A DNA stretch of 64,000 nucleotides, taken from positions 96,001-160,000 of IMG/VR virus record IMGVR_UViG_3300029286_002355. One strand, written 5' to 3'. This DNA comes from a virus. Positions 14,769 through 24,308 of this stretch are shown here, in pieces. The notes under the pieces are model-generated. The model ran no database searches. It worked only from the letters and a program-made list of their open reading frames with translations, and was not told where the DNA came from. Within the stretch, counting starts at the first letter, position 1; the number at the start of each line of letters is the position of its first letter. Both the position numbers and the translations under genes were made by a program.

Positions 14769-15470
14769 ATGACAATAAAACATATAAATGATGTAAACAG
14801 CGGGTGGGAGCCCAGAGTAGCAAAACTAGAAACAAGTATGGAGATGCTAACTAACAATGTCAATACTTTAACCAATAACGTTAGAGATCAAGGTGTTGAT
14901 ATTGAAAAACAACTTCGTGAGTTAACGGCATCAATCAACCTAGTAGCCAGCCCGAAACAAACAAACTGGAGTACTATTATTGCTGCTATAGCATTAATTT
15001 TGGCATTAGGAGCCGCTGTGTTTGCTCCGTTGAATATGCGAATTAATGAGAATAAAATATCAATTGAAAAATTATCCGGTTTTCATTTTGATCATGAAAA
15101 ATTACCTTTACATCCTGTGGGAGAAACAAAAATAGCCGGCCTTGAAGGATCTATTGCAGATAAACATCACTTATTTGAGCAATCTATTGGAGAACTTAAT
15201 GATAAACTCCAAGAAGAGTTCAAATTAACAACTGATGCCACAAAAGAACAAATCGAACAATTGGATGTTAGACTGCAACGTGAGTTTATGTTGTCAATGG
15301 CTAATACGGAAAAACAGGTAGAAGCAGCACGTTTAGATATTAAAGAAGGGAATTCTTTAGCTTTAAATAGAATTGAATCGCTAGAGCAATGGGTTAATAA
15401 TCGTACACAAGACGAGTTTAAAGAATTACAAAGCAGAAGAATGGGCGTAGAATGTGCAAAGAAAAAATAG
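14769..15470 (+). CDS. Coiled-coil protein with one transmembrane helix
   Basis: Heptad-rich N-terminus, hydrophobic TIIAAIALILALGAAVFAPL, long helical C-terminus. One of few plus-strand genes. Start placed at 14769. Confidence 0.6.
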   Translation: MTIKHINDVNSGWEPRVAKLETSMEMLTNNVNTLTNNVRDQGVDIEKQLRELTASINLVASPKQTNWSTIIAAIALILALGAAVFAPLNMRINENKISIEKLSGFHFDHEKLPLHPVGETKIAGLEGSIADKHHLFEQSIGELNDKLQEEFKLTTDATKEQIEQLDVRLQREFMLSMANTEKQVEAARLDIKEGNSLALNRIESLEQWVNNRTQDEFKELQSRRMGVECAKKK

Positions 15471-15475
15471 TTGAT

Positions 15476-16075
15476 TCAATTATTTTTTAGACAACATTTT
15501 TTATATTTTAACACCTTACCTGTTCTAGCATCTATTTTCCCACATGGACAAGGATCGTTTCGTCCTGTTTTTTTACCACCCTTTATAGTAAACAATCCTT
15601 TCTTACCATAATCAATAAGGATTTTTCCAGAAAGATGATCCATTTCATGTTGGGCAGCTACAGCCAATAAACCATCATTGTTTTCGCTCTTGATATTTGA
15701 ATAATAGAAGGCAACTGTTTGTTCCCTTAATTTATCATCCTCAAGTAGTTGATATTTTATGATATAGTTGCAAAAACGCTTCGTATCTAAATATATACTA
15801 GGAAAAGACAAACATCCTTCACCATAAAAAACAATTTCATCTTCTGCGCTTACTATCTCTGGGTTAATGAAATGCAGAAATTGACCTTCGCTCCTAAGAA
15901 TAAAAATGCGTTTTGGAATACCAATTTGGATTGCCGATAATCCTATCCCATCGTTGTGCTTAGATAGGGTTTCTTCTAGTTTCTTGATTATATCCTTGGC
16001 TTCTTCTATAGAAGTAACGATTTCAGAAACCGTTCCTTTAAACCTACAAAAATCTGTGTCGTTGTTTTTCATCAT
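15476..16075 (-). CDS. def: Peptide deformylase with C-terminal SEC-C motif; 3' part of a gene split by the IS607 element (first 15 codons come from the IS end)
   Basis: GIGLSAIQIG, EGCLS, QHEMDHL, and GRNDPCPCG...YKKCC. Native sequence resumes at codon GTT 16030-16028. Confidence 0.93.
   Translation of the reverse strand: MMKNNDTDFCRFKGTVSEIVTSIEEAKDIIKKLEETLSKHNDGIGLSAIQIGIPKRIFILRSEGQFLHFINPEIVSAEDEIVFYGEGCLSFPSIYLDTKRFCNYIIKYQLLEDDKLREQTVAFYYSNIKSENNDGLLAVAAQHEMDHLSGKILIDYGKKGLFTIKGGKKTGRNDPCPCGKIDARTGKVLKYKKCCLKNN
16040..16055 (+). repeat. Right-end subterminal repeat of the IS607 element
   Basis: AAACCTACAAAAATCT, the exact reverse complement of 23493-23508. Confidence 0.85.
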
Positions 16076-16080
16076 TTATC

Positions 16081-17169
16081 TTATATGTTTATTGGTTTGT
16101 AACTGGCACCGTAGGGACCAGTAAGAAACCGTGACAAAATATTCCTACTTGCATTTATATCTGCGTTGTCAGCATGATCACAACTCTGACAGCGGAATAC
16201 TTCTCCGTCACGATTCTTCTTATCGGCAAGACCACATTTCGGACAGGTAATACTAGTATTGTAAGGAGAGACAGTACGAAAGCTAACACGGTTATCTTCG
16301 CACCTTTGTTCTAGTCTTCCTAACCAGTATTTCCAATTCCAACTGCCGATAGAACGACGAATATTTTTACTCAATCGTCGTTTGAGTTTTGAGTTCTTAC
16401 CCAAATTCTTTAATCCTTCAACCACAATCAAGTCAGGATTCGTTCTAATAACTTCCTTGGCTACTTCATCAATTCTTTGTTTTAAAGCCCTTCTAGCCCT
16501 GTCCTTGCCCTTAGAACCTTGCTTGCATCTCTTGACTCGCTCTATGTTCTGTTTAATATCCTTGCCTAATTGTTGTCCTGTTGAAAGAGAAGCTAAAGCA
16601 TTTATTCCTGTATCAATTCCAATACACTTTTTACCATCTTTCTTTGCTCCTGTTTCCGTTTCAAAAACAAATTGGACATAGTTTTCTGTTATTATGTAGG
16701 AATTGAGTCTTTTTCCTTTAATACAAAGTCTATTATAATGCTTGTGGAATTTGATTGGAATATCCATTGTTATTTTATTACCTACAGAAGCGATATGTAG
16801 CCAAGCATCAAATTGTTTTGCTTCTTTACTATCTTTGAGTTCTGCTATAGTGCAAGAGACATACATTCTTTTGCCTTTATGAACAGGCTTGACTAGTTTA
16901 TTTGGTTGATTCTTCCAACGTTCTTTTGAGGCGGAAATCATATCAAGTGATTCTCTTGCGGCTACTTTTCTTAACCTAGCAGAAAGCCATGTCTGAGGTA
17001 TATCAACAATTGGTTTTAAGAGTTGTGTTTTATCAGTTGGATTAGTCCATAAATAGCCAACAAAGCAATTTACTACCTTTCCATACTCTTGAAGAATGGT
17101 GAGTAGTTCTTGCTTTTTCTTTTGAGTAGCGAATTTAGTGCTACATTTTGTTGACCTTATTATTTTCAT
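16081..17169 (-). CDS. tnpB: TnpB RNA-guided endonuclease (IS607-associated)
   Basis: RuvC-I GIDTG, RuvC-II VVEGL, Zn finger CPKCG...CQSC, RuvC-III NADINASRNI. Confidence 0.95.
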   Translation of the reverse strand: MKIIRSTKCSTKFATQKKKQELLTILQEYGKVVNCFVGYLWTNPTDKTQLLKPIVDIPQTWLSARLRKVAARESLDMISASKERWKNQPNKLVKPVHKGKRMYVSCTIAELKDSKEAKQFDAWLHIASVGNKITMDIPIKFHKHYNRLCIKGKRLNSYIITENYVQFVFETETGAKKDGKKCIGIDTGINALASLSTGQQLGKDIKQNIERVKRCKQGSKGKDRARRALKQRIDEVAKEVIRTNPDLIVVEGLKNLGKNSKLKRRLSKNIRRSIGSWNWKYWLGRLEQRCEDNRVSFRTVSPYNTSITCPKCGLADKKNRDGEVFRCQSCDHADNADINASRNILSRFLTGPYGASYKPINI

Positions 17170-17705
17170 TCTATTTTAAGCCCGTCAAGTAATTTCCCAT
17201 CTTTTATCTTTTTTATGGTTTCCAAACATCTTGATTCTGACAAGTAATTGTTAAATGTCTCTCCTTTGGGCAATTTAAGATAATCAAGTGACCCATTTGG
17301 AAATTGTGTTAAAGGAACATGAACTATATTTTTCGCCAACTGCTTAATAATTTCTATGTAATCTTGTTGTGATAGTTTTACGGTCTTATATTTAGTAATA
17401 ACTTTTAGGAGTCTCAATCTGCATTCATTTACGTTATCTCTAAATATATCGCATCCATATATTGTTGATATGGCTTGAACGGGGTGGGCGTGTTTTAGTT
17501 TTCTTTTGAGCACAGGAATTAAGAGTTGACCATTTCCACAGGCGGGGTCTATAATTGTTTTCTCTGGATTGGAGAACAAATCAGGAGAGTATTCTTCCAT
17601 TTTTGAGCACATTTCTTCTGCAAGAAGAAGTGGCGTAAAGCATTCTGCGGATTGCTTACGCCTTTTATCTCTTTTTTCTTCTATTGATTGGTTCTCATTA
17701 TTCAT
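17166..17705 (-). CDS. Small DNA methyltransferase-like protein (SAM-binding motif only)
   Basis: ECFTP...EM, IIDPACGNGQLL (motif I), IYGCDI. No NPPY/DPPY catalytic motif in 179 aa. Confidence 0.75.
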   Translation of the reverse strand: MNNENQSIEEKRDKRRKQSAECFTPLLLAEEMCSKMEEYSPDLFSNPEKTIIDPACGNGQLLIPVLKRKLKHAHPVQAISTIYGCDIFRDNVNECRLRLLKVITKYKTVKLSQQDYIEIIKQLAKNIVHVPLTQFPNGSLDYLKLPKGETFNNYLSESRCLETIKKIKDGKLLDGLKIE

Positions 17706-17709
17706 GGAT

Positions 17710-18450
17710 TTATATTCCGTTATAAATTAAATTGCACTTTTTATTGCAATCAAAAAAGTATGTTTGTAATTTCGATGAACGTAATTTTTCATCGTCTAAT
17801 CTTTTTTGAATTATATTTTGAAAATCCTCTCCTTGATTTACGCCTATTCCCTCAAATCCATTATTTGAATAATACATGTGATATGTGTCAGGAGATAAAT
17901 CCTCTAATTCTAGCGAAGACGTAAAAGAAGCATATGGGATTATTATAAGCCGATATCCATTTATATTTTGATATTTCTTTATCTTAGAGCATATTCCATC
18001 TATCATCTTCTGAACAAGGAATGAGGAATTGGGGCAATAACAGCAAATACTTTCATCTATATTGCCAGTCGCCACTGAATTTTTATCTACAGGCTTCGTA
18101 TTGTGAATTTTCTTGTCGGTTTCATTGTCTAAATTTACAGTAAAACATTCTATAATGACTTTTGCATTATCGTCAACAAAATCAGGAGTCAACCCGCTTA
18201 TATCTTTCTCGTATTCAAGATGTAATTTTTCTTGGTTGATGAAATGTTCTGATATTGACAACTCATTTATAAATTCTAGTCCCTGAATGTTTTTTCTATG
18301 AGATTCTTTTTCTTTACTATTTATTAGCGAAATTAACTTTTTTAGTATCTTTTGTTGAGATGATTGACCAAAATTAGGCAATATCCTTTTTAAGTTTTCT
18401 TTAATGGACGAATTCATTTTTAGTGTATCTATTTCTTCCGTTATATTCAT
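17710..18450 (-). CDS. Hypothetical protein, possible PD-(D/E)xK nuclease
   Basis: GLTPDFVDDNAKVIIEC resembles a PD...ExK-type motif; coupled within the cargo operon. Confidence 0.45.
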   Translation of the reverse strand: MNITEEIDTLKMNSSIKENLKRILPNFGQSSQQKILKKLISLINSKEKESHRKNIQGLEFINELSISEHFINQEKLHLEYEKDISGLTPDFVDDNAKVIIECFTVNLDNETDKKIHNTKPVDKNSVATGNIDESICCYCPNSSFLVQKMIDGICSKIKKYQNINGYRLIIIPYASFTSSLELEDLSPDTYHMYYSNNGFEGIGVNQGEDFQNIIQKRLDDEKLRSSKLQTYFFDCNKKCNLIYNGI

Positions 18451-19613
18451 TTTACAAACTCCTTCCAGAAATCTTTCTTTAAGAATTCAAAAACCTCTGG
18501 TTCAATTGAAAACCCAGACCACTTACAAATATTCATCATCTCTATGAATTTTTCCGACCTTATTGCCGCAATTATGTTTTCGGCTTCTTTTGTGTTATCA
18601 ACTTCTATGGCTATACAGTTGTTTGTCACTCCATATTCGCCTTTTTCATCATAAAAACAGTTTTCTGGACTTGCCTTTCCTAAGATAACTTTCTTCACTC
18701 CGAAATGCCCATCTTTTTTAGAAGAATATAACAAAACAGGTGTCTTACCACATGGCGTAGAGTAAATGCATGGATATAAAAACTTATCATCTTTCTCTTT
18801 AGACATCCAAGGCTTATCGTTTCCATACATTGACCTTGAGTGAATAACCTTTATTCGTTTTTCGCCCTTGATCCCTATACATTTTTCTAGTATTTCAGAA
18901 TGCTTATGGGAAATAAATGGCTTAGAAGACATATCAATTTTTTTAGAAACCCCATCTTCGTCTAAAATTATTGTGCCATTCTTTCTGGCTTTATTTATTA
19001 ATACATACCAGTCATATCTTGTTCCGCATCCAAACGTTTTCTGCCCATCAGACTGATTATGAATTTCCAAATATTCCAATTGCTTATCTTGGAATACGGA
19101 ATATAGAGGGTGATTGGGTTTTCTCCAAGCACTAGGATGAATGAGGGAAATAATTCCTCCATCATTAACAATATTAAATCCCATTTCAACAAATCTTTGC
19201 CAAAGAGATTTGTGCTTATTTTTTGGGTCTTGATAAGGAGGATTTCCTATAACACAATCCCAAGTCCTTATCTCTTTCTTTTCTTGCACCTTCTCAAAGA
19301 AATCAAAAAAGTCATCACTCATAATTTCTACTCCTATTTTTTGTCCAAATTTAGCCTTTTGTTCACAATCTGTGAAGAAACAAATATCTTTAGGATCAAT
19401 CCCTATTTCAACAAGAACTATAGCAATTTCCAAATTCGTAACCAATATCTTTTTGCCCTTTAGTTCACAATACTTGCAAACCTTATCAATCATTTTCTCG
19501 CAAAGATCATAGGGTGTAAAAACATTCTGCAAGTTATTATCAAGAGTTGCCCACTCCTTGAATACTTCTTGATAATACTCTCTAAGAGCCAATTGTTTTG
19601 CTGACAGAATCAT
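18447..19613 (-). CDS. Eco57I-like N6-adenine DNA methyltransferase
   Basis: VFTPYDL, DCVIGNPPYQ (motif IV), LWQRFVE...GGIISLIHPSAW, and a C-terminal TRD-like region. Motif I is degenerate. Confidence 0.85.
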   Translation of the reverse strand: MILSAKQLALREYYQEVFKEWATLDNNLQNVFTPYDLCEKMIDKVCKYCELKGKKILVTNLEIAIVLVEIGIDPKDICFFTDCEQKAKFGQKIGVEIMSDDFFDFFEKVQEKKEIRTWDCVIGNPPYQDPKNKHKSLWQRFVEMGFNIVNDGGIISLIHPSAWRKPNHPLYSVFQDKQLEYLEIHNQSDGQKTFGCGTRYDWYVLINKARKNGTIILDEDGVSKKIDMSSKPFISHKHSEILEKCIGIKGEKRIKVIHSRSMYGNDKPWMSKEKDDKFLYPCIYSTPCGKTPVLLYSSKKDGHFGVKKVILGKASPENCFYDEKGEYGVTNNCIAIEVDNTKEAENIIAAIRSEKFIEMMNICKWSGFSIEPEVFEFLKKDFWKEFVK

Positions 19614-21823
19614 AACGCAAATTCCTTTCGCAACGCCTCTTTCTCGCTATCCACTTGTTTCCTAAACTCTTCTTGCTTTTTTCTTTCCTCAATTGAAAGA
19701 ATAATACTAAATTCATGCTCAATCTCTTCAGGAACAGTATAGGTCTTTTCAATTCTAGGCGGTGGGACAGTAATCATCTTGCCATCATAGGTTTCCTCAT
19801 TGAATATCTCATAAGGGCAATACCCAATATCGGACTGAATCTGATCCACCATTCTCTCAATATTGTTTCTGTTAATATCGCTAAATCCACAATACTTTGG
19901 CATAATAACATAACAGAATGGCTTATAGAACTTCCCTTTATAGCAATCCGAAGGAACGATCAATCCTTTGGACAATCTTTCTCTATCAAAAGGATGAAGT
20001 CTCATTCCCCTACCCAAAGCCTGACTTGAAGTAATATCACTCATGTCTCCAAAGGGAAGAATAGCATTAATCCCCGGCACATCCCATCCTTCACCTACCA
20101 TTGCAATATGAAGAATAATAGCCTTTTCATCTGGTGCCTTATTCGCCAAATCTTCCATAAATTGATTTATGTTATGGGCATTAGAAGGATATGGCACTCC
20201 GTTTCTGTAAACATTCCAATCACTTGAAACGGCATAAATAGCTACATCGGGCAATTCTTTCTGATAGTTCTTGAAAGTCTTGGATTTAATCGCTTCAGAA
20301 TAAGATTTTCCACCCGGACATCTCACAAGAAGTTTTACTCCATTTGCCTTACTGTTGACAGAATGCTTGTCGTTAATCCTTGCCACTTCTTTCCAAGATT
20401 CCCATATAATGTACGCATTGAGTTCTGCATTTTTTGTAATCTCTTCCTGTGTTGCAGTAGAAATATCAACATGCTTTCTTAAAACCGCTTTGGTAATTGA
20501 CAAATGACACAAGAGAGGTCTTACAATCTTACCCAATTCAATCATTTCTTTTGGACTCTTCCTAGAAATAACTTCTCCAAACAACTCTGTATTATCCATG
20601 CCTTTGCCGTCTACAATAGGTGCATCGGGAGTTCCGCTTAACGCTTGTGTTGCAGTATAAAAGACCGTTAATGGGGAAAGCATCTTGGCTTCTTTAGAAA
20701 TAACCGATTCCCTACTCTTTTGAGGAATACTTCTTCCTTTCACTATATTATGGGCTTCATCGCAGTTAATCAAGTCAAACTTCATTCCTGACTCAATAAT
20801 CTTATAAACTGAATGATATGTTGTGAAAATAAGGGCTAGTCCATTTGAATCATTCACAGCCTTATTTAGTTGTTCTATATTAGTGGTATTTACCACTTCT
20901 TCTATGCCAGTATTCATTCTGGCTAGATTATCATTGTCATAGTCGCCAGAAGTAAAATTAACTACTGTCACGTTATCAATCCCATACTGCTTAAGGCGAT
21001 TGATTATCTTCTTTATTCCTTGCTTTCCAAGAGTAATTCTAGGCGAAACAAAAAGGATTTTAGAATGAGGCTTGTATTTTAATACATCACCAGACAACTC
21101 AATTGAATACTCCATCATAATTTCATTTTTGCCAGTTCCAGTAGGCCAAATAACTTGATATCTACCCTGCTTTTTACTTAGCAATGCCTTAATTGCTTCC
21201 ACTTGGTATGCGTCTGGAACAAAATCCATTGAACATGATAAAACTTCATTGACGGCATTTTCCAAAGATTCCCTATATGCCTTCCAAAAACCAATATTAC
21301 CATCAACCAAAGACTTAATCTCGTTAATTCCGTAAAATTGAGTTTTCTCTGGCAAAACAAAGTTCTTTATAGTGTTTTCATGAATCGCAACAGAATCAGA
21401 AAATATATTGAAAACTTTTTCATCGGCAGACAAATCAAATCCGTCAAGATAGCATGATTGAGAAAAGTATTCAGTAAGTTGACTGTTGCCATCCGTCATA
21501 AACTCTTTGCCATTAAAGGCGAAGAAAGCAGTTACAACCTTGCCATTTCTCTTGCCAAGACCATGAGCCTTATATTTATGATTAATCGAATTAATATTTT
21601 CGTAATCACTTATGCCAATTTTATCTCCAAAATAAAGTATCAATGCTTCCACAAAAGACTGAAAGCCACTCTCAATAAAGTCTTTAGCCGTTTTACTTTC
21701 TAGTGAAAGTTTCCTAAGATTTTGTCCAAATCCGTCAAAGGACAAATCAGAAGGCATCAAATTACCAGCATTAGAGACGCTTCCATTAAGGATTTTGAAT
21801 TTGAATATATGATTTGTTTTCAT
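19610..21823 (-). CDS. SF2 (DEAH) helicase/ATPase resembling restriction-modification Res/R subunits
   Basis: WPTGTGKNE (I), NCDEAH (II), YTAT (III), MVGEGWDVP (V), QALGRGMR (VI). Start set at ATG 21823 (ATGA overlap). Confidence 0.88.
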   Translation of the reverse strand: MKTNHIFKFKILNGSVSNAGNLMPSDLSFDGFGQNLRKLSLESKTAKDFIESGFQSFVEALILYFGDKIGISDYENINSINHKYKAHGLGKRNGKVVTAFFAFNGKEFMTDGNSQLTEYFSQSCYLDGFDLSADEKVFNIFSDSVAIHENTIKNFVLPEKTQFYGINEIKSLVDGNIGFWKAYRESLENAVNEVLSCSMDFVPDAYQVEAIKALLSKKQGRYQVIWPTGTGKNEIMMEYSIELSGDVLKYKPHSKILFVSPRITLGKQGIKKIINRLKQYGIDNVTVVNFTSGDYDNDNLARMNTGIEEVVNTTNIEQLNKAVNDSNGLALIFTTYHSVYKIIESGMKFDLINCDEAHNIVKGRSIPQKSRESVISKEAKMLSPLTVFYTATQALSGTPDAPIVDGKGMDNTELFGEVISRKSPKEMIELGKIVRPLLCHLSITKAVLRKHVDISTATQEEITKNAELNAYIIWESWKEVARINDKHSVNSKANGVKLLVRCPGGKSYSEAIKSKTFKNYQKELPDVAIYAVSSDWNVYRNGVPYPSNAHNINQFMEDLANKAPDEKAIILHIAMVGEGWDVPGINAILPFGDMSDITSSQALGRGMRLHPFDRERLSKGLIVPSDCYKGKFYKPFCYVIMPKYCGFSDINRNNIERMVDQIQSDIGYCPYEIFNEETYDGKMITVPPPRIEKTYTVPEEIEHEFSIILSIEERKKQEEFRKQVDSEKEALRKEFAL

Positions 21824-22512
21824 GCTTTCACCATTTCGCAAAATGTTTTCCAAAACGTAGGATTGTTGCCACAGACAGACTTCAAAGAACAAACTTCGGT
21901 TGGATCGTTATTTGGAAGATAAATTCCACCAGACTCTTCTTGGGCTATGAATTTCAATCTCCCATGAAAATGTCCACCTAAAGTCATCCAATTTATATCG
22001 TGAGCCAAGGTAAAGACAAACATTTGATCTCTACTTGTGGTTCCAACTCCATATTTTGAAATTGAAGTCCAATGAAAGGTTCTTAACTTTCTTTTAATAT
22101 GATCAAGGGCAGTAGACCAATTGCCATATTTGACCTGAACTGTAATAACTCTTCCGTCTTTTGTCTTGCCTGTTCCGTCCACTCCTACATCTTGATCTTC
22201 CCCGCAAACAGAAAAGAATGGAACATAATTATAAATTCCCCATGTTCTCCCATATCCTTTAAGGACATATTCTGCAAAAACTTCTGTTACGTCACCTTTG
22301 AAAGAATTCGCTCCATCCTCGCCATATTTATCAAAGAAATCAACTTTTTCTGATTTTTCTATAATTCCAACCTGTTTTTCTATTCTGGAAGCAAAACAAG
22401 ACAATGAACTACACTTCTCTAAAAGCACATCCCAACATTTAACCGCAACCTTTCTTGGATGGGTTATCGAAGTTGCCAACATATCATCGTCTAATTGGTT
22501 ATCGTTATTCAT
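21820..22512 (-). CDS. Putative restriction-endonuclease-like (Mrr-type) nuclease
   Basis: KGDVTEVFAE...DVGVDG...TVQVKY matches the E...D-x-G-x-D...Q-x-K motif of Mrr-like nucleases. Confidence 0.65.
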   Translation of the reverse strand: MNNDNQLDDDMLATSITHPRKVAVKCWDVLLEKCSSLSCFASRIEKQVGIIEKSEKVDFFDKYGEDGANSFKGDVTEVFAEYVLKGYGRTWGIYNYVPFFSVCGEDQDVGVDGTGKTKDGRVITVQVKYGNWSTALDHIKRKLRTFHWTSISKYGVGTTSRDQMFVFTLAHDINWMTLGGHFHGRLKFIAQEESGGIYLPNNDPTEVCSLKSVCGNNPTFWKTFCEMVKA

Positions 22513-23195
22513 TCTATTCCTTTCTCAATTGTTGGCGTCATCATACCAGAACCATTGAGTAAGTCAAGCTCTTTCTGCAATTTTTTCTCTTTTCTTCGTT
22601 TTGCTGACCTTTTCCCGTAAAGTCGCCCTGAGAAAACAGCCATAAGCATCATAATATCTTGAACTAATTCCTCTTCATCATTAGAAGACGTAGATTCAAC
22701 CTTCTCTATTTCAACACCATAACTATCAAAAAATCTCACTAATACATTAAATTGGAAACGTGTCAATCTATCTTTATGCTCTACAATTACTTTAGATACT
22801 TTCTTCTGAATTACAAGATCAAATAATTTGTTAAATCCACTTCTTGTATCCGACAATCCCGAACCAACATCTTTGATAATGTGTTCAACTCTATACTTCT
22901 TTTTGGCACAGTATTCAGACAATCTTTGACTCTGCCTATCTAAATCTCCTTTTTGTTTCTGTTCATGGCTACTCACTCTAGCATAGGTAGCAACAGGAAG
23001 AAGATTTCTATTTACTTCTTCCTCTTTAATTCCCATGTAAGAATTAATATCGCTCTGCTTATACCTACGATGACCACCTTTTGTTCTAACTGGCTTTAGA
23101 GTTCCATCGGCGTCCCAATTCCTTAAGGTTTCTTGGGATACATTGAGTCTAAGGCAAGTTTCCGCCATACTAAGGAGTTTATCTTTTTCTAGCAT
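22509..23195 (-). CDS. tnpA: IS607-family transposase (MerR-type HTH plus serine recombinase)
   Basis: LSMAETCLRLNVSQETLRNWD...RTKGGHRRY HTH, then YARVSS (catalytic Ser), DVGSGL, VEHKDRLTRF, ELVQDIM...FSGRLYGKRS. Confidence 0.96.
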   Translation of the reverse strand: MLEKDKLLSMAETCLRLNVSQETLRNWDADGTLKPVRTKGGHRRYKQSDINSYMGIKEEEVNRNLLPVATYARVSSHEQKQKGDLDRQSQRLSEYCAKKKYRVEHIIKDVGSGLSDTRSGFNKLFDLVIQKKVSKVIVEHKDRLTRFQFNVLVRFFDSYGVEIEKVESTSSNDEEELVQDIMMLMAVFSGRLYGKRSAKRRKEKKLQKELDLLNGSGMMTPTIEKGIE

Positions 23196-23418
23196 TTCGC
23201 TTCTCCTTTTCTGACTTTTTAATGAATTCAGATATAAGCGACTTGGAATCGTTTATAAATTTTTGGAATTCTTCTAGTGTTGGCTCATATCCCAAATCAA
23301 ACGGAATTGGGTAAATGTCTCCCGTATCTAGTTCAAATTCTGTTTTAGAGACTCTAACGACCTTATGATTTTTATTTTCCATATCTTTAATTATCCTTGC
23401 AAATTTTGATGATTTCAT
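23179..23418 (-). CDS. Small hypothetical protein at the left end of the IS607 element
   Basis: 79-aa ORF overlapping the tnpA start, with an AAAGGAG SD; lies inside the mapped element ends. Confidence 0.7.
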   Translation of the reverse strand: MKSSKFARIIKDMENKNHKVVRVSKTEFELDTGDIYPIPFDLGYEPTLEEFQKFINDSKSLISEFIKKSEKEKRNARKR

Positions 23419-23492
23419 TTTTCATACTCCTTTATTCTATATTATACTGCGAAATTCCTGCAAGAAAATGAAAATATTTTTTAGGTGTTTGT

Positions 23493-23508
23493 AGATTTTT
23501 GTAGGTTT
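23493..23508 (-). repeat. Left-end subterminal repeat of the IS607 element
   Basis: On the minus strand AAACCTACAAAAATCT continues into ACAAACACCTAAAAA, giving short CTACAAA-like direct repeats as expected for IS607 TnpA binding arrays. Confidence 0.8.
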
Positions 23509-23524
23509 TCATTCAACGGTTGCC

Positions 23525-23563
23525 AACCCTCTTCAAAAGAGATATGTTTTCGATAATTTCCAT
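23525..23563 (-). pseudogene. def: Orphaned 5' fragment of def (MEIIENISLLKRV)
   Basis: ATG at 23563, one base after the radical-SAM stop, with a GAGGTG SD. Joins in frame to VSEIVTSIEEA at 16030 through the shared GGTT. Confidence 0.85.
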
Positions 23564-23564
23564 A

Positions 23565-24308
23565 TTACACCTCTCTTACTTTTACTTCGTTTGTATATTC
23601 CATAGCTACACTGGCAAGATATTTTATTTCTATATCGTCATATAAAGGAATATTTTTCGCTTTTTTTGACAACATGGTTTTCGTTTTTCTAAAAGGTTGT
23701 AAAATCCACTTTTCTTCCTTCTGCAAAGCCATTCCAATGTACCTAATGGCTTTCTCGTCTACTAGCGAAGGATAAAGTGTGGTTCTAATTTCATAGTTAA
23801 AAGAGTCATGAAAATGTTTTTTAGCCCTTAGTTTCCCTAGGCTTGTAAAAACGCTATCAAAAAGACCCAATTTAGTCTTATTGCCCGTCTTTCCCGCCAA
23901 TAAGTTATCATATCTATCTTTATCCGTTTTGATATCCAACGTAACATAATCCACAAAAGATAAAATCATAGATAGTTTGTTAAATTCTAATCCATTGGTT
24001 GACAGAGCTATTTTGCAACCCCATTTTTTTATTTCATAAACCATAGACATAATTTCAAAGATAGATCTATATAAGGGTTCCCCACCACTTATACCTACCC
24101 ATTTGCAATCGTTTTCTTTTACAAACAGTTTTACTTCATCCAAACTAATATCGGGCTTAATATTTTCCCCCGTAACCAGTCTTGAATTCATGCAATAAGG
24201 GCAGCGTAATTGGCAGTTTCTAAGAAAAACAGAAGGCGCAAAGGCATCTGGCCCTGCTTCACTACTTTTGTTAAAGCCATATATTTTCGGTAACAATTGG
24301 CAAATCAT
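23565..24308 (-). CDS. Radical SAM protein, anaerobic ribonucleotide reductase activase (NrdG/PflA-like)
   Basis: FLRNCQLRCPYCMN (CxxxCxxC), ISGGEP, LSTNG, YEIRTT. Confidence 0.88.
   Translation of the reverse strand: MICQLLPKIYGFNKSSEAGPDAFAPSVFLRNCQLRCPYCMNSRLVTGENIKPDISLDEVKLFVKENDCKWVGISGGEPLYRSIFEIMSMVYEIKKWGCKIALSTNGLEFNKLSMILSFVDYVTLDIKTDKDRYDNLLAGKTGNKTKLGLFDSVFTSLGKLRAKKHFHDSFNYEIRTTLYPSLVDEKAIRYIGMALQKEEKWILQPFRKTKTMLSKKAKNIPLYDDIEIKYLASVAMEYTNEVKVREV

What the first reader, a model, noticed from the sequence alone, without database searches (positions are those of the whole stretch)
16030..23528. IS607 transposon carrying a restriction-modification-like operon between tnpA and tnpB
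Seen: IS607 tnpA (22509-23195) and tnpB (16081-17169) are 5.3 kb apart. Between them are five genes: a Mrr-like nuclease, an SF2 helicase, an Eco57I-like MTase, a possible PD-(D/E)xK protein and a small MTase. They are chained by ATGA overlaps at 22509, 21820, 19610, 18447 and 17166, plus one 4-nt gap, forming one operon from tnpA to tnpB. The ends can be mapped: GGTT at both junctions, a perfect 16-bp subterminal inverted repeat (16040-16055 / 23493-23508), and excision rebuilds def in frame. All catalytic motifs look intact (TnpA YARVSS; TnpB D/E/D). Established: IS607 elements are normally ~2 kb tnpA-tnpB units that recombine at a GG core without target duplication. Inference: this is a cargo-carrying IS607, a mobile R-M or defence/competition island inside a phage genome, with its own TnpB nuclease that would cut element-free alleles and help retain it.
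Basis: partly seen in the sequence, partly recalled or inferred. Interest (0 to 1): 0.92.

Follow-up and report, generated by a model that had tools for sequence, protein, structure and literature searches.

The report
Phage IS607 transposon carrying restriction-modification-like cargo
A normally two-kilobase jumping gene (IS607 type) in a large lake phage has grown to 7.5 kb by taking in a five-gene DNA-cutting and DNA-marking cassette. The whole unit has landed at three or more different places in related phages, so it is a self-preserving vehicle for a weapon-like gene set.

Summary
Window 16030-23528 (minus strand) is one IS607-family transposon: LE, orf79, tnpA, a PD-(D/E)xK nuclease, an SF2 helicase, an NPPY methyltransferase-like protein, orf246, a small SAM-motif methyltransferase-like protein, tnpB with a right-end guide-RNA scaffold, RE.

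- **Ends.** They match conserved termini of this IS607 clade: AGGG|TT...AACnGTTGA on the left and ...AGGAACGG|T on the right.
- **Mobility.** The same composite lies in two other metagenome contigs with unrelated flanks, and similarity breaks exactly at these ends.
- **Target gene.** Removing the element rebuilds a peptide deformylase N-terminus that aligns without gaps to intact homologues.
- **Cargo history.** The cassette also occurs without any IS in related phages. Distant versions sit inside two other IS607 elements in different positions, so it was captured more than once.
- **Specificity.** Three otherwise ~95%-identical transposons carry three different methyltransferase C-terminal (target-recognition) alleles.

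Cargo function (restriction/competition) and transposition activity are inferred, not shown. Rare IS607 cargo, including a helicase, was briefly noted by Altae-Tran et al. 2023, and this scan has noted IS607 cargo on other DNA. It is therefore a new variant of a known kind.

The parts
16030..23528 (-). Whole IS607-family transposon (~7.5 kb, both GG cores counted)
   Evidence: Similarity to L011 and L013 breaks at 23521-23530 and 16029. G000 has only one LE and one RE of this family.
23493..23528 (-). Left end: GG core (23527-23528), spacer, AACCGTTGA (23513-23521), subterminal repeat AAACCTACAAAAATCT (23493-23508)
   Evidence: LE pattern (A)GGG|T(T/A)nnnAACnGTTGA seen at 18 insertions.
23179..23418 (-). 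orf79, clade-specific accessory gene upstream of tnpA; function unknown
   Evidence: Homologue directly upstream of tnpA in >30 IS607 loci. No Pfam, PHROG or NCBIfam hit. Protein atlas gives viral hypothetical clusters only.
22509..23195 (-). tnpA, IS607 serine transposase (MerR-type HTH plus resolvase domain, YARVSS)
   Evidence: NF033518 205 bits; Resolvase/HTH_17; PDB hits ISC1926 and IS1535 TnpA.
21820..22512 (-). orf230, PD-(D/E)xK nuclease (E81, D108-GVDG, Q126-x-K128 invariant)
   Evidence: Alignment; AF2 pLDDT 78, pTM 0.82; Foldseek hits EcoO109I, Cdn1/Card1, NucS/EndoMS at prob 0.98-1.0.
19610..21823 (-). SF2 helicase (ResIII/DEAD; GTGK, DEAH) with an N-terminal degenerate orf230-like domain
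   Evidence: Pfam; invariant motifs; N-domain cross-hits to orf230 regions.
18447..19613 (-). mt388, Eco57I-type N6-adenine MTase-like: FTP, degenerate motif I, NPPY, variable C-terminal target-recognition part
   Evidence: Pfam Eco57I; alignment; N-terminal 130 aa 90-92% versus C-terminal part 37-44% identical among IS-borne copies.
17710..18450 (-). orf246, variable accessory gene (possible PD-(D/E)xK nuclease; weak)
   Evidence: Present only in the window and L010; 6 distant homologues in 1.8 billion representatives; motif E79/PD90/K156; low-confidence model with only weak nuclease-fold hits.
17166..17705 (-). mt179, small MTase-like protein with motifs X and I (FTP, DPACGNG) and motif II; no NPPY
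   Evidence: N6_Mtase; alignment; matches N-terminal 50 aa of CamA and M.BseCI.
17603..19225 (-). Swapped (mosaic) segment: mt388 C-terminal part, orf246 and the start of mt179
   Evidence: Nucleotide similarity to L011 and L009 is lost between ~19221/19230 and 17603; three alleles.
16081..17169 (-). tnpB, RNA-guided nuclease (RuvC GIDTG / VVEGL / NADINA, CxxC...CxxC)
   Evidence: NF040570; Cas12f1-like_TNB; sequence; PDB TnpB/Cas12f hits.
16030..16227 (-). Predicted guide-RNA (omega RNA) scaffold overlapping the tnpB 3' end and running to RE
   Evidence: Consensus of 10 elements: 45 pairs, 16 with compensatory changes, 91.6% paired against ~40% when slid, 0/500 shuffles. No Rfam family matched.
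16030..16055 (-). Right end: AGATTTTTGTAGGTTT (16040-16055) plus AAAGGAACGG (16030-16039; GG core 16030-16031)
   Evidence: RE terminus conserved in >20 elements, with similarity ending after AACGG(T).
16010..16029 (-). Predicted guide / target: def sequence directly 3' of RE
   Evidence: Inference from IS607 TnpB biology (bioRxiv 10.1101/2023.11.20.567912) and the position of the scaffold.
23525..23563 (-). def 5' fragment (MEIIENISLLKRV), cut off by the insertion
15476..16027 (-). def 3' part (Pep_deformylase positions 18-149). As an ORF it starts at an RE-encoded ATG at 16075.
   Evidence: Pfam 95 bits; only def in G000.

Best explanation
Window 16030-23528 is a single, unit-mobile IS607-family transposon of a clade whose ordinary members are ~2.4-kb orf79-tnpA-tnpB elements. 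A pre-existing phage cassette was inserted at the tnpA/tnpB junction. It comprises a PD-(D/E)xK nuclease, an SF2 helicase and two complementary N6-adenine-methyltransferase-like proteins, here with an extra gene, orf246. The gene chain stayed translationally coupled. The serine transposase TnpA recombines the two ends at a GG core (target AGGG|T). One such event placed the element in codon 13/14 of the phage's only peptide deformylase gene. TnpB, with a guide RNA made from the right end and the adjoining def sequence, is expected to cut element-free def alleles (TAM-like AGGG next to the target). Recombinational repair would then copy the 7.5-kb unit back in during mixed infections or after excision. 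The cargo most likely works as a restriction-modification-like system: it methylates the phage's own DNA and uses helicase-driven nuclease attack on unmarked DNA of the host or of competing phages. Its recognition part is exchanged by recombination with IS-free cassettes. Shown here: anatomy, ends, three insertion contexts, the def empty site, the conserved RNA structure, mosaic recognition alleles and repeated capture. Inferred: present activity, TnpB homing and cargo biochemistry.
For: HMM identities. The same composite sits at different sites: L011 has both ends and L013 has the left end, with similarity breaks exactly at the ends and continuous 92-96% identity across both internal junctions. 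The RE terminus is conserved in >20 elements and the LE pattern plus AGGG target at 18 insertions. G000 has one LE and one RE only. The def reconstruction aligns gap-free to intact homologues. The RNA structure shows covariation. TnpB and TnpA catalytic motifs are intact. orf230 has a nuclease fold. IS-free cassettes occur in related phages. Distant versions of the cassette lie inside L040 (between tnpA and tnpB) and L034 (between LE and orf79). In the helicase tree the IS-borne copies fall in two distant clades. There are three recognition-domain alleles. The published mechanism gives a GG core, a TGGG target equal to the TAM, and TnpB homing for IS607.
Against: No direct sign of current activity: no circle-junction or empty-site reads could be examined, and only two copies show both ends. 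Neither MTase-like protein has both an intact motif I and motif IV, and their complementation is a guess (hhalign probability only 21%). PADLOC and NCBIfam place no cargo protein in a defined defence or R-M family above threshold. orf246 and orf79 have no assigned function. The guide RNA has no Rfam match, and its ends and the TAM are inferred.
Confidence: 0.8

Rival explanations
1. The cassette is not passive cargo but a working partner of the transposon. Nuclease, helicase and methylase help the element spread or persist in phage populations, for example by destroying unmethylated element-free genomes in co-infections, so that R-M-type exclusion and TnpB homing together form a gene-drive package.
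For: The same cassette family lies inside IS607 elements in three architectures and in two distant helicase clades. The gene chain is translationally coupled from tnpA to tnpB. Recognition alleles are swapped while the transposon backbone stays ~95% identical.
Against: IS-free cassettes are common and branch between the IS-borne ones. Sister IS607 elements carry unrelated cargo (GHKL ATPase, NERD-type nuclease, DUF4238, another helicase) or none.
Confidence: 0.2
2. The cargo is a phage DNA-modification and host-takeover module: self-methylation to evade host restriction, and helicase-nuclease to degrade host DNA. It would not be a restriction or competition system.
For: The cassette occurs as an ordinary gene block in several phage contigs without any IS. 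No R-M or defence HMM passes a curated threshold.
Against: Rapid allele swapping confined to the recognition part of the MTase and variable accessory nucleases (orf246; DUF4357 gene in L009) are the pattern of sequence-specific conflict systems.
Confidence: 0.25
3. The unit is a fossil. The cargo entered an IS607 once, and the composite is now immobile and inherited vertically at this locus, or it is an assembly chimera.
For: Only one copy in G000. No activity data.
Against: There are three unrelated flanks in three independent assemblies with exact breaks at the canonical ends. All catalytic motifs are intact. The insertion splits a gene that is intact in relatives.
Confidence: 0.03

Closest known systems
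IS607-family insertion sequences (IS607, IS1535, ISC1926; CboIStron work of Zedaveinyte et al., bioRxiv 10.1101/2023.11.20.567912)
   Same: Serine-recombinase TnpA with an N-terminal HTH, TnpB, GG core at both junctions, no target duplication, a GGG-type target equal to the TAM, and a right-end guide-RNA scaffold.
   Different: 7.5 kb instead of ~2 kb; eight genes; 5.3 kb of R-M-like cargo between tnpA and tnpB; an extra conserved orf79; sits in a phage; no group I intron.
Rare cargo in serine-recombinase-associated TnpB branches (Altae-Tran et al. 2023, PNAS, PMC10691335; 'Ser-3': extra HTH protein, ATP-dependent RNA helicase, WhiA-like protein)
   Same: Cargo genes, including a helicase, and an additional small protein inside IS607-type elements.
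   Different: That paper gives one sentence and a figure. It does not mention boundaries, multiple insertion sites, methyltransferase/nuclease partners, recognition-allele swapping or repeated capture in the passages I read.
Type I / Type III restriction-modification systems (HsdR/Res helicase-nuclease plus N6-adenine MTase)
   Same: PD-(D/E)xK nuclease, SF2 ResIII helicase, N6A MTase motifs and a fast-evolving recognition part.
   Different: Nuclease and helicase are separate genes. MTase motifs I and IV are on two proteins. There is no S subunit. No HMM reaches a family threshold. Activity is untested.
Transposons in giant viruses that carry an endonuclease plus a methyltransferase (Mariner-2_PGv, Mariner-1_OLpv; Bao and Jurka 2013, PMC3627910)
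   Same: A virus-resident transposon carrying an R-M-like gene pair, discussed together with TnpB/Fanzor.
   Different: Those are DDE Mariner elements of eukaryotic viruses with two cargo genes. This is a serine-recombinase IS607 of a bacteriophage with TnpB and a helicase.

Membership tests
IS607 family | Serine-recombinase TnpA with N-terminal MerR-like HTH | tested here: met
   NF033518 205 bits (cut-off 110), Resolvase plus HTH_17/MerR; YARVSS; PDB ISC1926 and IS1535 TnpA.
IS607 family | TnpB with intact RuvC triad and zinc ribbon at the right side | tested here: met
   NF040570 102.8 (cut-off 100); GIDTG, VVEGL, NADINA, CxxC...CxxC.
IS607 family | GG core at both junctions, no target-site duplication | tested here: met
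   AGAG|GG|TT... and ...GAAC|GG|TT in the window; GG at 18/18 LE junctions and conserved AACGG at RE.
IS607 family | Compact element of about 2 kb encoding only tnpA and tnpB | tested here: not met
   7.5 kb and eight genes. Ordinary clade members are ~2.4 kb.
IS607 family | Right-end guide RNA (omega RNA) used by TnpB | tested here: inconclusive
   Conserved structure with covariation at the expected place. No Rfam hit. Expression and guiding not testable here.
IS607 family | Mobility (more than one insertion site) | tested here: met
   Window, L011 and L013 have unrelated flanks.
Restriction-modification system (Type I/III-like) | DNA MTase with SAM-binding motif I and catalytic motif IV | tested here: inconclusive
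   NPPY only in mt388 and DPACGNG only in mt179. Complementation unproven.
Restriction-modification system (Type I/III-like) | Helicase-coupled PD-(D/E)xK endonuclease | tested here: met
   ResIII/DEAD helicase and an adjacent PD-(D/E)xK-fold protein with a conserved catalytic motif, as separate genes.
Restriction-modification system (Type I/III-like) | Membership in a curated R-M or defence HMM family | tested here: not met
   Only sub-threshold partial hits in NCBIfam and PADLOC.
Restriction-modification system (Type I/III-like) | Sequence-specific methylation and restriction of unmodified DNA | not testable with these tools
   Needs expression, methylome sequencing and restriction assays.
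IStron (IS607 with group I intron) | Group I intron at the element ends that splices the element out of mRNA | tested here: not met
   No intron family in 15400-24000 at E<=1.

The most novel reading that the evidence does not exclude
This orf79-bearing IS607 clade is a specialised vehicle for conflict systems in large phages (and some bacteria). TnpB-guided homing acts as a natural RNA-guided gene drive that carries a payload: an R-M-like cassette whose recognition module is swapped between elements. Exclusion of unmethylated rivals and homing into their empty sites would reinforce each other.
Probability: 0.3. Interest if true: 0.85.

Novelty: new variant of a known kind. Interest (0 to 1): 0.66.

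Why it matters
IS607/IS605 elements are treated as minimal transposons whose only extra function is TnpB-mediated self-preservation. This case has mapped ends, several insertion sites and a reconstructed empty site. It shows that such an element can move 5 kb of functional-looking cargo through phage genomes. It also shows that the same cassette family was taken up repeatedly.

If TnpB homing works on this element, it is a natural example of an RNA-guided nuclease driving a payload. That bears on how defence and competition genes spread among phages, and on the evolutionary path from TnpB transposons to larger RNA-guided systems.

The cassette itself may be an undescribed R-M-like system. Its features are a split nuclease/helicase, two complementary half-degenerate methyltransferase paralogues and swappable recognition parts.

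Tried and rejected
Gene neighbourhoods of the Logan/ENA homologues (P0003, P0005, P0024 and others) could therefore not be read. Contexts come only from JGI metagenome, IMG/VR and GTDB loci.
- Megablast of the region against cultured phages gave nothing. tblastn of the helicase found only distant stand-alone helicases of cyanophages (22-27% identity). The MTase matched one uncultured 484-kb phage that lacks the cassette.
- Single-protein and profile scans of IMG/VR for the helicase gave nothing. The LE pattern had no IMG/VR match. The RE pattern found one further right end (L021).
- Rfam gave no omega-RNA or intron family.
- Promoter and terminator scans were not above chance.
- Profile searches of the helicase and orf230 alignments against PDB sequences gave nothing. 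Pfam on all orf230 homologues gave nothing.
- An LE-like motif upstream of the IS-free cassette in L014/L016 was examined and rejected. It lies in a coding region among small phage ORFs and has no subterminal repeat.
- An alternative crossover in the AAC(C/G)GTT motif was considered. It was rejected because it would leave def frameshifted and does not fit L011's left junction.
Full report
**Setting.** The window is bases 96001-160000 of a 186-kb IMG/VR virus record, 82% complete by CheckV. Earlier notes of this scan call it a lake phage. The record has six TnpB homologues but only one IS607 TnpA.

**Observation.** The minus strand between 23418 and 16081 carries an unbroken chain of eight ORFs:

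| Gene | Coordinates |
|---|---|
| orf79 | 23179-23418 |
| tnpA | 22509-23195 |
| orf230 | 21820-22512 |
| helicase | 19610-21823 |
| mt388 | 18447-19613 |
| orf246 | 17710-18450 |
| mt179 | 17166-17705 |
| tnpB | 16081-17169 |

- TnpA is an IS607 transposase: NF033518 at 205 bits against a cut-off of 110, with Resolvase plus MerR-type HTH and the motif YARVSS. Its closest solved structures are the ISC1926 and IS1535 TnpA catalytic domains.
- TnpB passes NF040570 and has GIDTG, VVEGL, NADINA and two CxxC pairs.
- The perfect 16-bp inverted repeat and GGTT at both junctions are in the sequence.

**Boundaries and mobility.** The helicase has close relatives only in metagenomes. A metagenome scan with a helicase alignment returned 12 loci.

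- L011, from a 148-kb contig, holds the same unit orf79-tnpA-orf230-helicase-mt388-mt179-tnpB. L013 holds the same left part before its contig ends.
- Nucleotide similarity to the window starts at 23521 (L011) or 23530 (L013) and ends at 16029 (L011). It runs without a break across the tnpA/orf230 junction (95-96%) and the mt179/tnpB junction (92%).
- The flanks are unrelated in all three. On the left, window ...TTGAAGAG|GGTT|GGCAACCGTTGA, L013 ...TATGATAG|GGTT|GGCAACC, L011 ...TTTAAAAG|GGTA|TTTAACC. On the right, window ...AAAGGAAC|GGTT|TCTGAA, L011 ...AAAGGAAC|GGTA|ATGGGG.
- A further right end in IMG/VR (L021) ends the same way before a fourth flank.

I then collected 43 loci with related TnpA from IMG/VR and GTDB genomes.

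- The right terminus (T)AGATTTyyGTArrTTTnnnnGAACGG|T is conserved in more than 20 of them, and similarity stops after it.
- The left end reads GG|T(T/A)-spacer-AACnGTTGA followed by the inverted partner of the right repeat.
- At 18 independent left junctions the flank ends A(13/18) G(17/18) G G. This is an AGGG target, analogous to the TGGG target/TAM with a strict GG core shown experimentally for an IS607-family IStron (bioRxiv 10.1101/2023.11.20.567912).
- G000 contains just one LE and one RE of this type, at the two ends of the unit, and none inside it.

The 7.5-kb unit is therefore bounded by the canonical ends of its family and has inserted as a whole at three or more sites.

**Target gene.** The right flank is the only peptide deformylase gene of the record, and it matches only Pfam positions 18-149. 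Joining the flanks through the shared GGTT gives MEIIENISLLKRV|SEIVTS.... This aligns without gaps to the closest intact homologues, P0024 (76% identity, MNIVEDVSILRQVSTTVES) and P0025. The ORF that starts inside the right end needs a 3-residue insertion to align. No group I intron is present, so def is disrupted at the DNA level. An RE-encoded ATG five bases after the tnpB stop could still give an N-terminally altered Def.

**The ordinary form of this IS and its guide RNA.** A homologue of orf79 sits directly upstream of tnpA in more than 30 of the related loci. The clade is thus a three-gene IS of about 2.4 kb. It may correspond to the 'additional HTH domain protein' of Altae-Tran et al.'s Ser-3 branch, but I could not show an HTH. 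The last ~200 nt of ten elements fold into a shared structure of 45 pairs. Sixteen pairs show compensatory changes, 91.6% of cells are paired against about 40% when partners are slid, and no shuffle out of 500 reached the observed values. In the window this is 16030-16227, the place where a TnpB guide-RNA scaffold is expected. The adjoining def bases would be the guide. The occupied site has ACGG where the empty site has AGGG, which would spare the occupied site. This last step is inference.

**The cargo.**
- *orf230.* It has invariant E81, D108-GVDG and Q126-x-K128. Its model (pLDDT 78) matches restriction-endonuclease-fold proteins: EcoO109I, the Cdn1/Card1 nuclease domains and NucS.
- *Helicase.* It has GTGK and DEAH motifs and ResIII/DEAD domains. 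Its N-terminal domain resembles a degenerate copy of orf230.
- *mt388.* It has FTP, a degenerate motif I (KILVxNLE) and NPPY.
- *mt179.* It has FTP, DPACGNG and motif II but no NPPY. It matches the first ~50 residues of CamA and M.BseCI.
- *The MTase pair.* A weak profile alignment (probability 21%) lays mt179 on the N-terminal 130 residues of mt388. The two may be complementary half-degenerate paralogues, but this is a guess.
- *orf246.* It has only six distant relatives among 1.8 billion representatives, a poor model, and only weak nuclease-fold similarities.
- No cargo protein reaches a curated R-M or defence threshold.

**Origin and dynamics of the cargo.**
- The four-gene cassette occurs with no transposase, TnpB or IS ends in L010, L012 and L014-L018. 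L010 also has orf246. L010 and L013 share other genes with G000, so these are related phages.
- In L040, from a 258-kb viral contig with TnpA 50% identical, a distant version lies between tnpA and tnpB of a 7.36-kb element with canonical ends. Its gene order is helicase-mt388-mt179-orf230, at 27-39% identity.
- In L034 the cassette lies between LE and orf79. A DUF4238 gene sits between tnpA and a frameshifted tnpB.
- In a helicase tree the IS-borne copies fall into two distant clades with IS-free copies between them. This indicates at least two captures.
- Among 36 related loci with both genes, six have more than 0.7 kb between tnpA and tnpB. Their contents are a ResIII helicase plus a 208-aa protein (L036), an MzaB-like GHKL ATPase (L053), a zinc-ribbon/NERD-type protein (L058), DUF4238 (L034), two small ORFs (L041) and the cassette (L040).
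- Within the window's own lineage the backbone is 92-96% identical, but a 1.6-kb segment (about 17603-19225) is replaced. The N-terminal 130 residues of mt388 are 90-92% identical among the window, L009 and L011. The C-terminal 258 residues are only 37-44% identical. The window's allele is 79% identical to that of the IS-free L010, which also shares orf246.
- L009 has in addition a DUF4357 (weak GIY-YIG) gene after the helicase. L012 has DUF4357 fused to its helicase.
- Exchange confined to the presumed recognition part, with variable accessory nucleases, is the behaviour of sequence-specific conflict systems.

**Comparison with the literature.** The mechanism of IS607 and the role of TnpB in retaining it are published. 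Altae-Tran et al. [quoted passage not shown] Bao and Jurka 2013 described Mariner transposons of giant viruses with an endonuclease and a methyltransferase. I found no paper describing an IS607 with an R-M-like cassette, its boundaries, its multiple insertions or its allele swapping. The library is limited to open-access texts. This scan has noted other IS607 cargo cases on other DNA; I did not test those.

**Verdict.** The reading of the cargo as a restriction/competition system and the TnpB-retention step are well-founded inferences that need experiments. I rate it a new variant of a known kind, of above-average interest.

Noticed in passing
window 16029-16083: The right end encodes ATGATG five bases after the tnpB stop, in frame with the def remainder (ORF 15476-16075). 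An N-terminally altered deformylase might still be made by reinitiation. L011's right end has the same outward-reading start.
   Followed up: partly
G000 (whole record); loci L003-L007: The phage record holds five further, divergent TnpB homologues (25-35% identity) but no second IS607 TnpA. L011's contig shares an IS200/IS605-type TnpA-TnpB pair (59-62% identity) with G000 11.9-13.3 kb.
   Followed up: no
L057:8660-8720: An archaeal (Altiarchaeales MAG) member of the same IS607 clade is inserted right after a sequence that looks like a tRNA 3' end (...GGTTCGAGCCCTGCCGGGGG|TTCCAACTGTTGA).
   Followed up: no
L009:2912-3715: Extra 267-aa gene with DUF4357 (48 bits) and a weak GIY-YIG match between the helicase and mt388. 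In L012 DUF4357 is fused to the helicase C-terminus.
   Followed up: partly
L053:9724-11779; L058:1546-3492; L036:4383-8162; L041:1751-2472: Other members of the clade carry unrelated cargo between tnpA and tnpB: an MzaB-like GHKL ATPase plus a 203-aa protein (Bacteroidetes MAG), a zinc-ribbon/DUF723/NERD-type 548-aa protein (Neisseriaceae MAG), a 208-aa protein plus a 1051-aa ResIII helicase, and two small ORFs.
   Followed up: partly
L034:10568-11811: tnpB of this cassette-bearing element is split into two overlapping frames (301 and 130 aa), probably a frameshift, while its ends are intact.
   Followed up: no
window 15476-15560 (Def C-terminus): The phage Def and many of its homologues end in a SEC-C-type zinc motif (PF02810 in the precomputed domains; ...RNDPCPCG...KKCC).
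   Followed up: no
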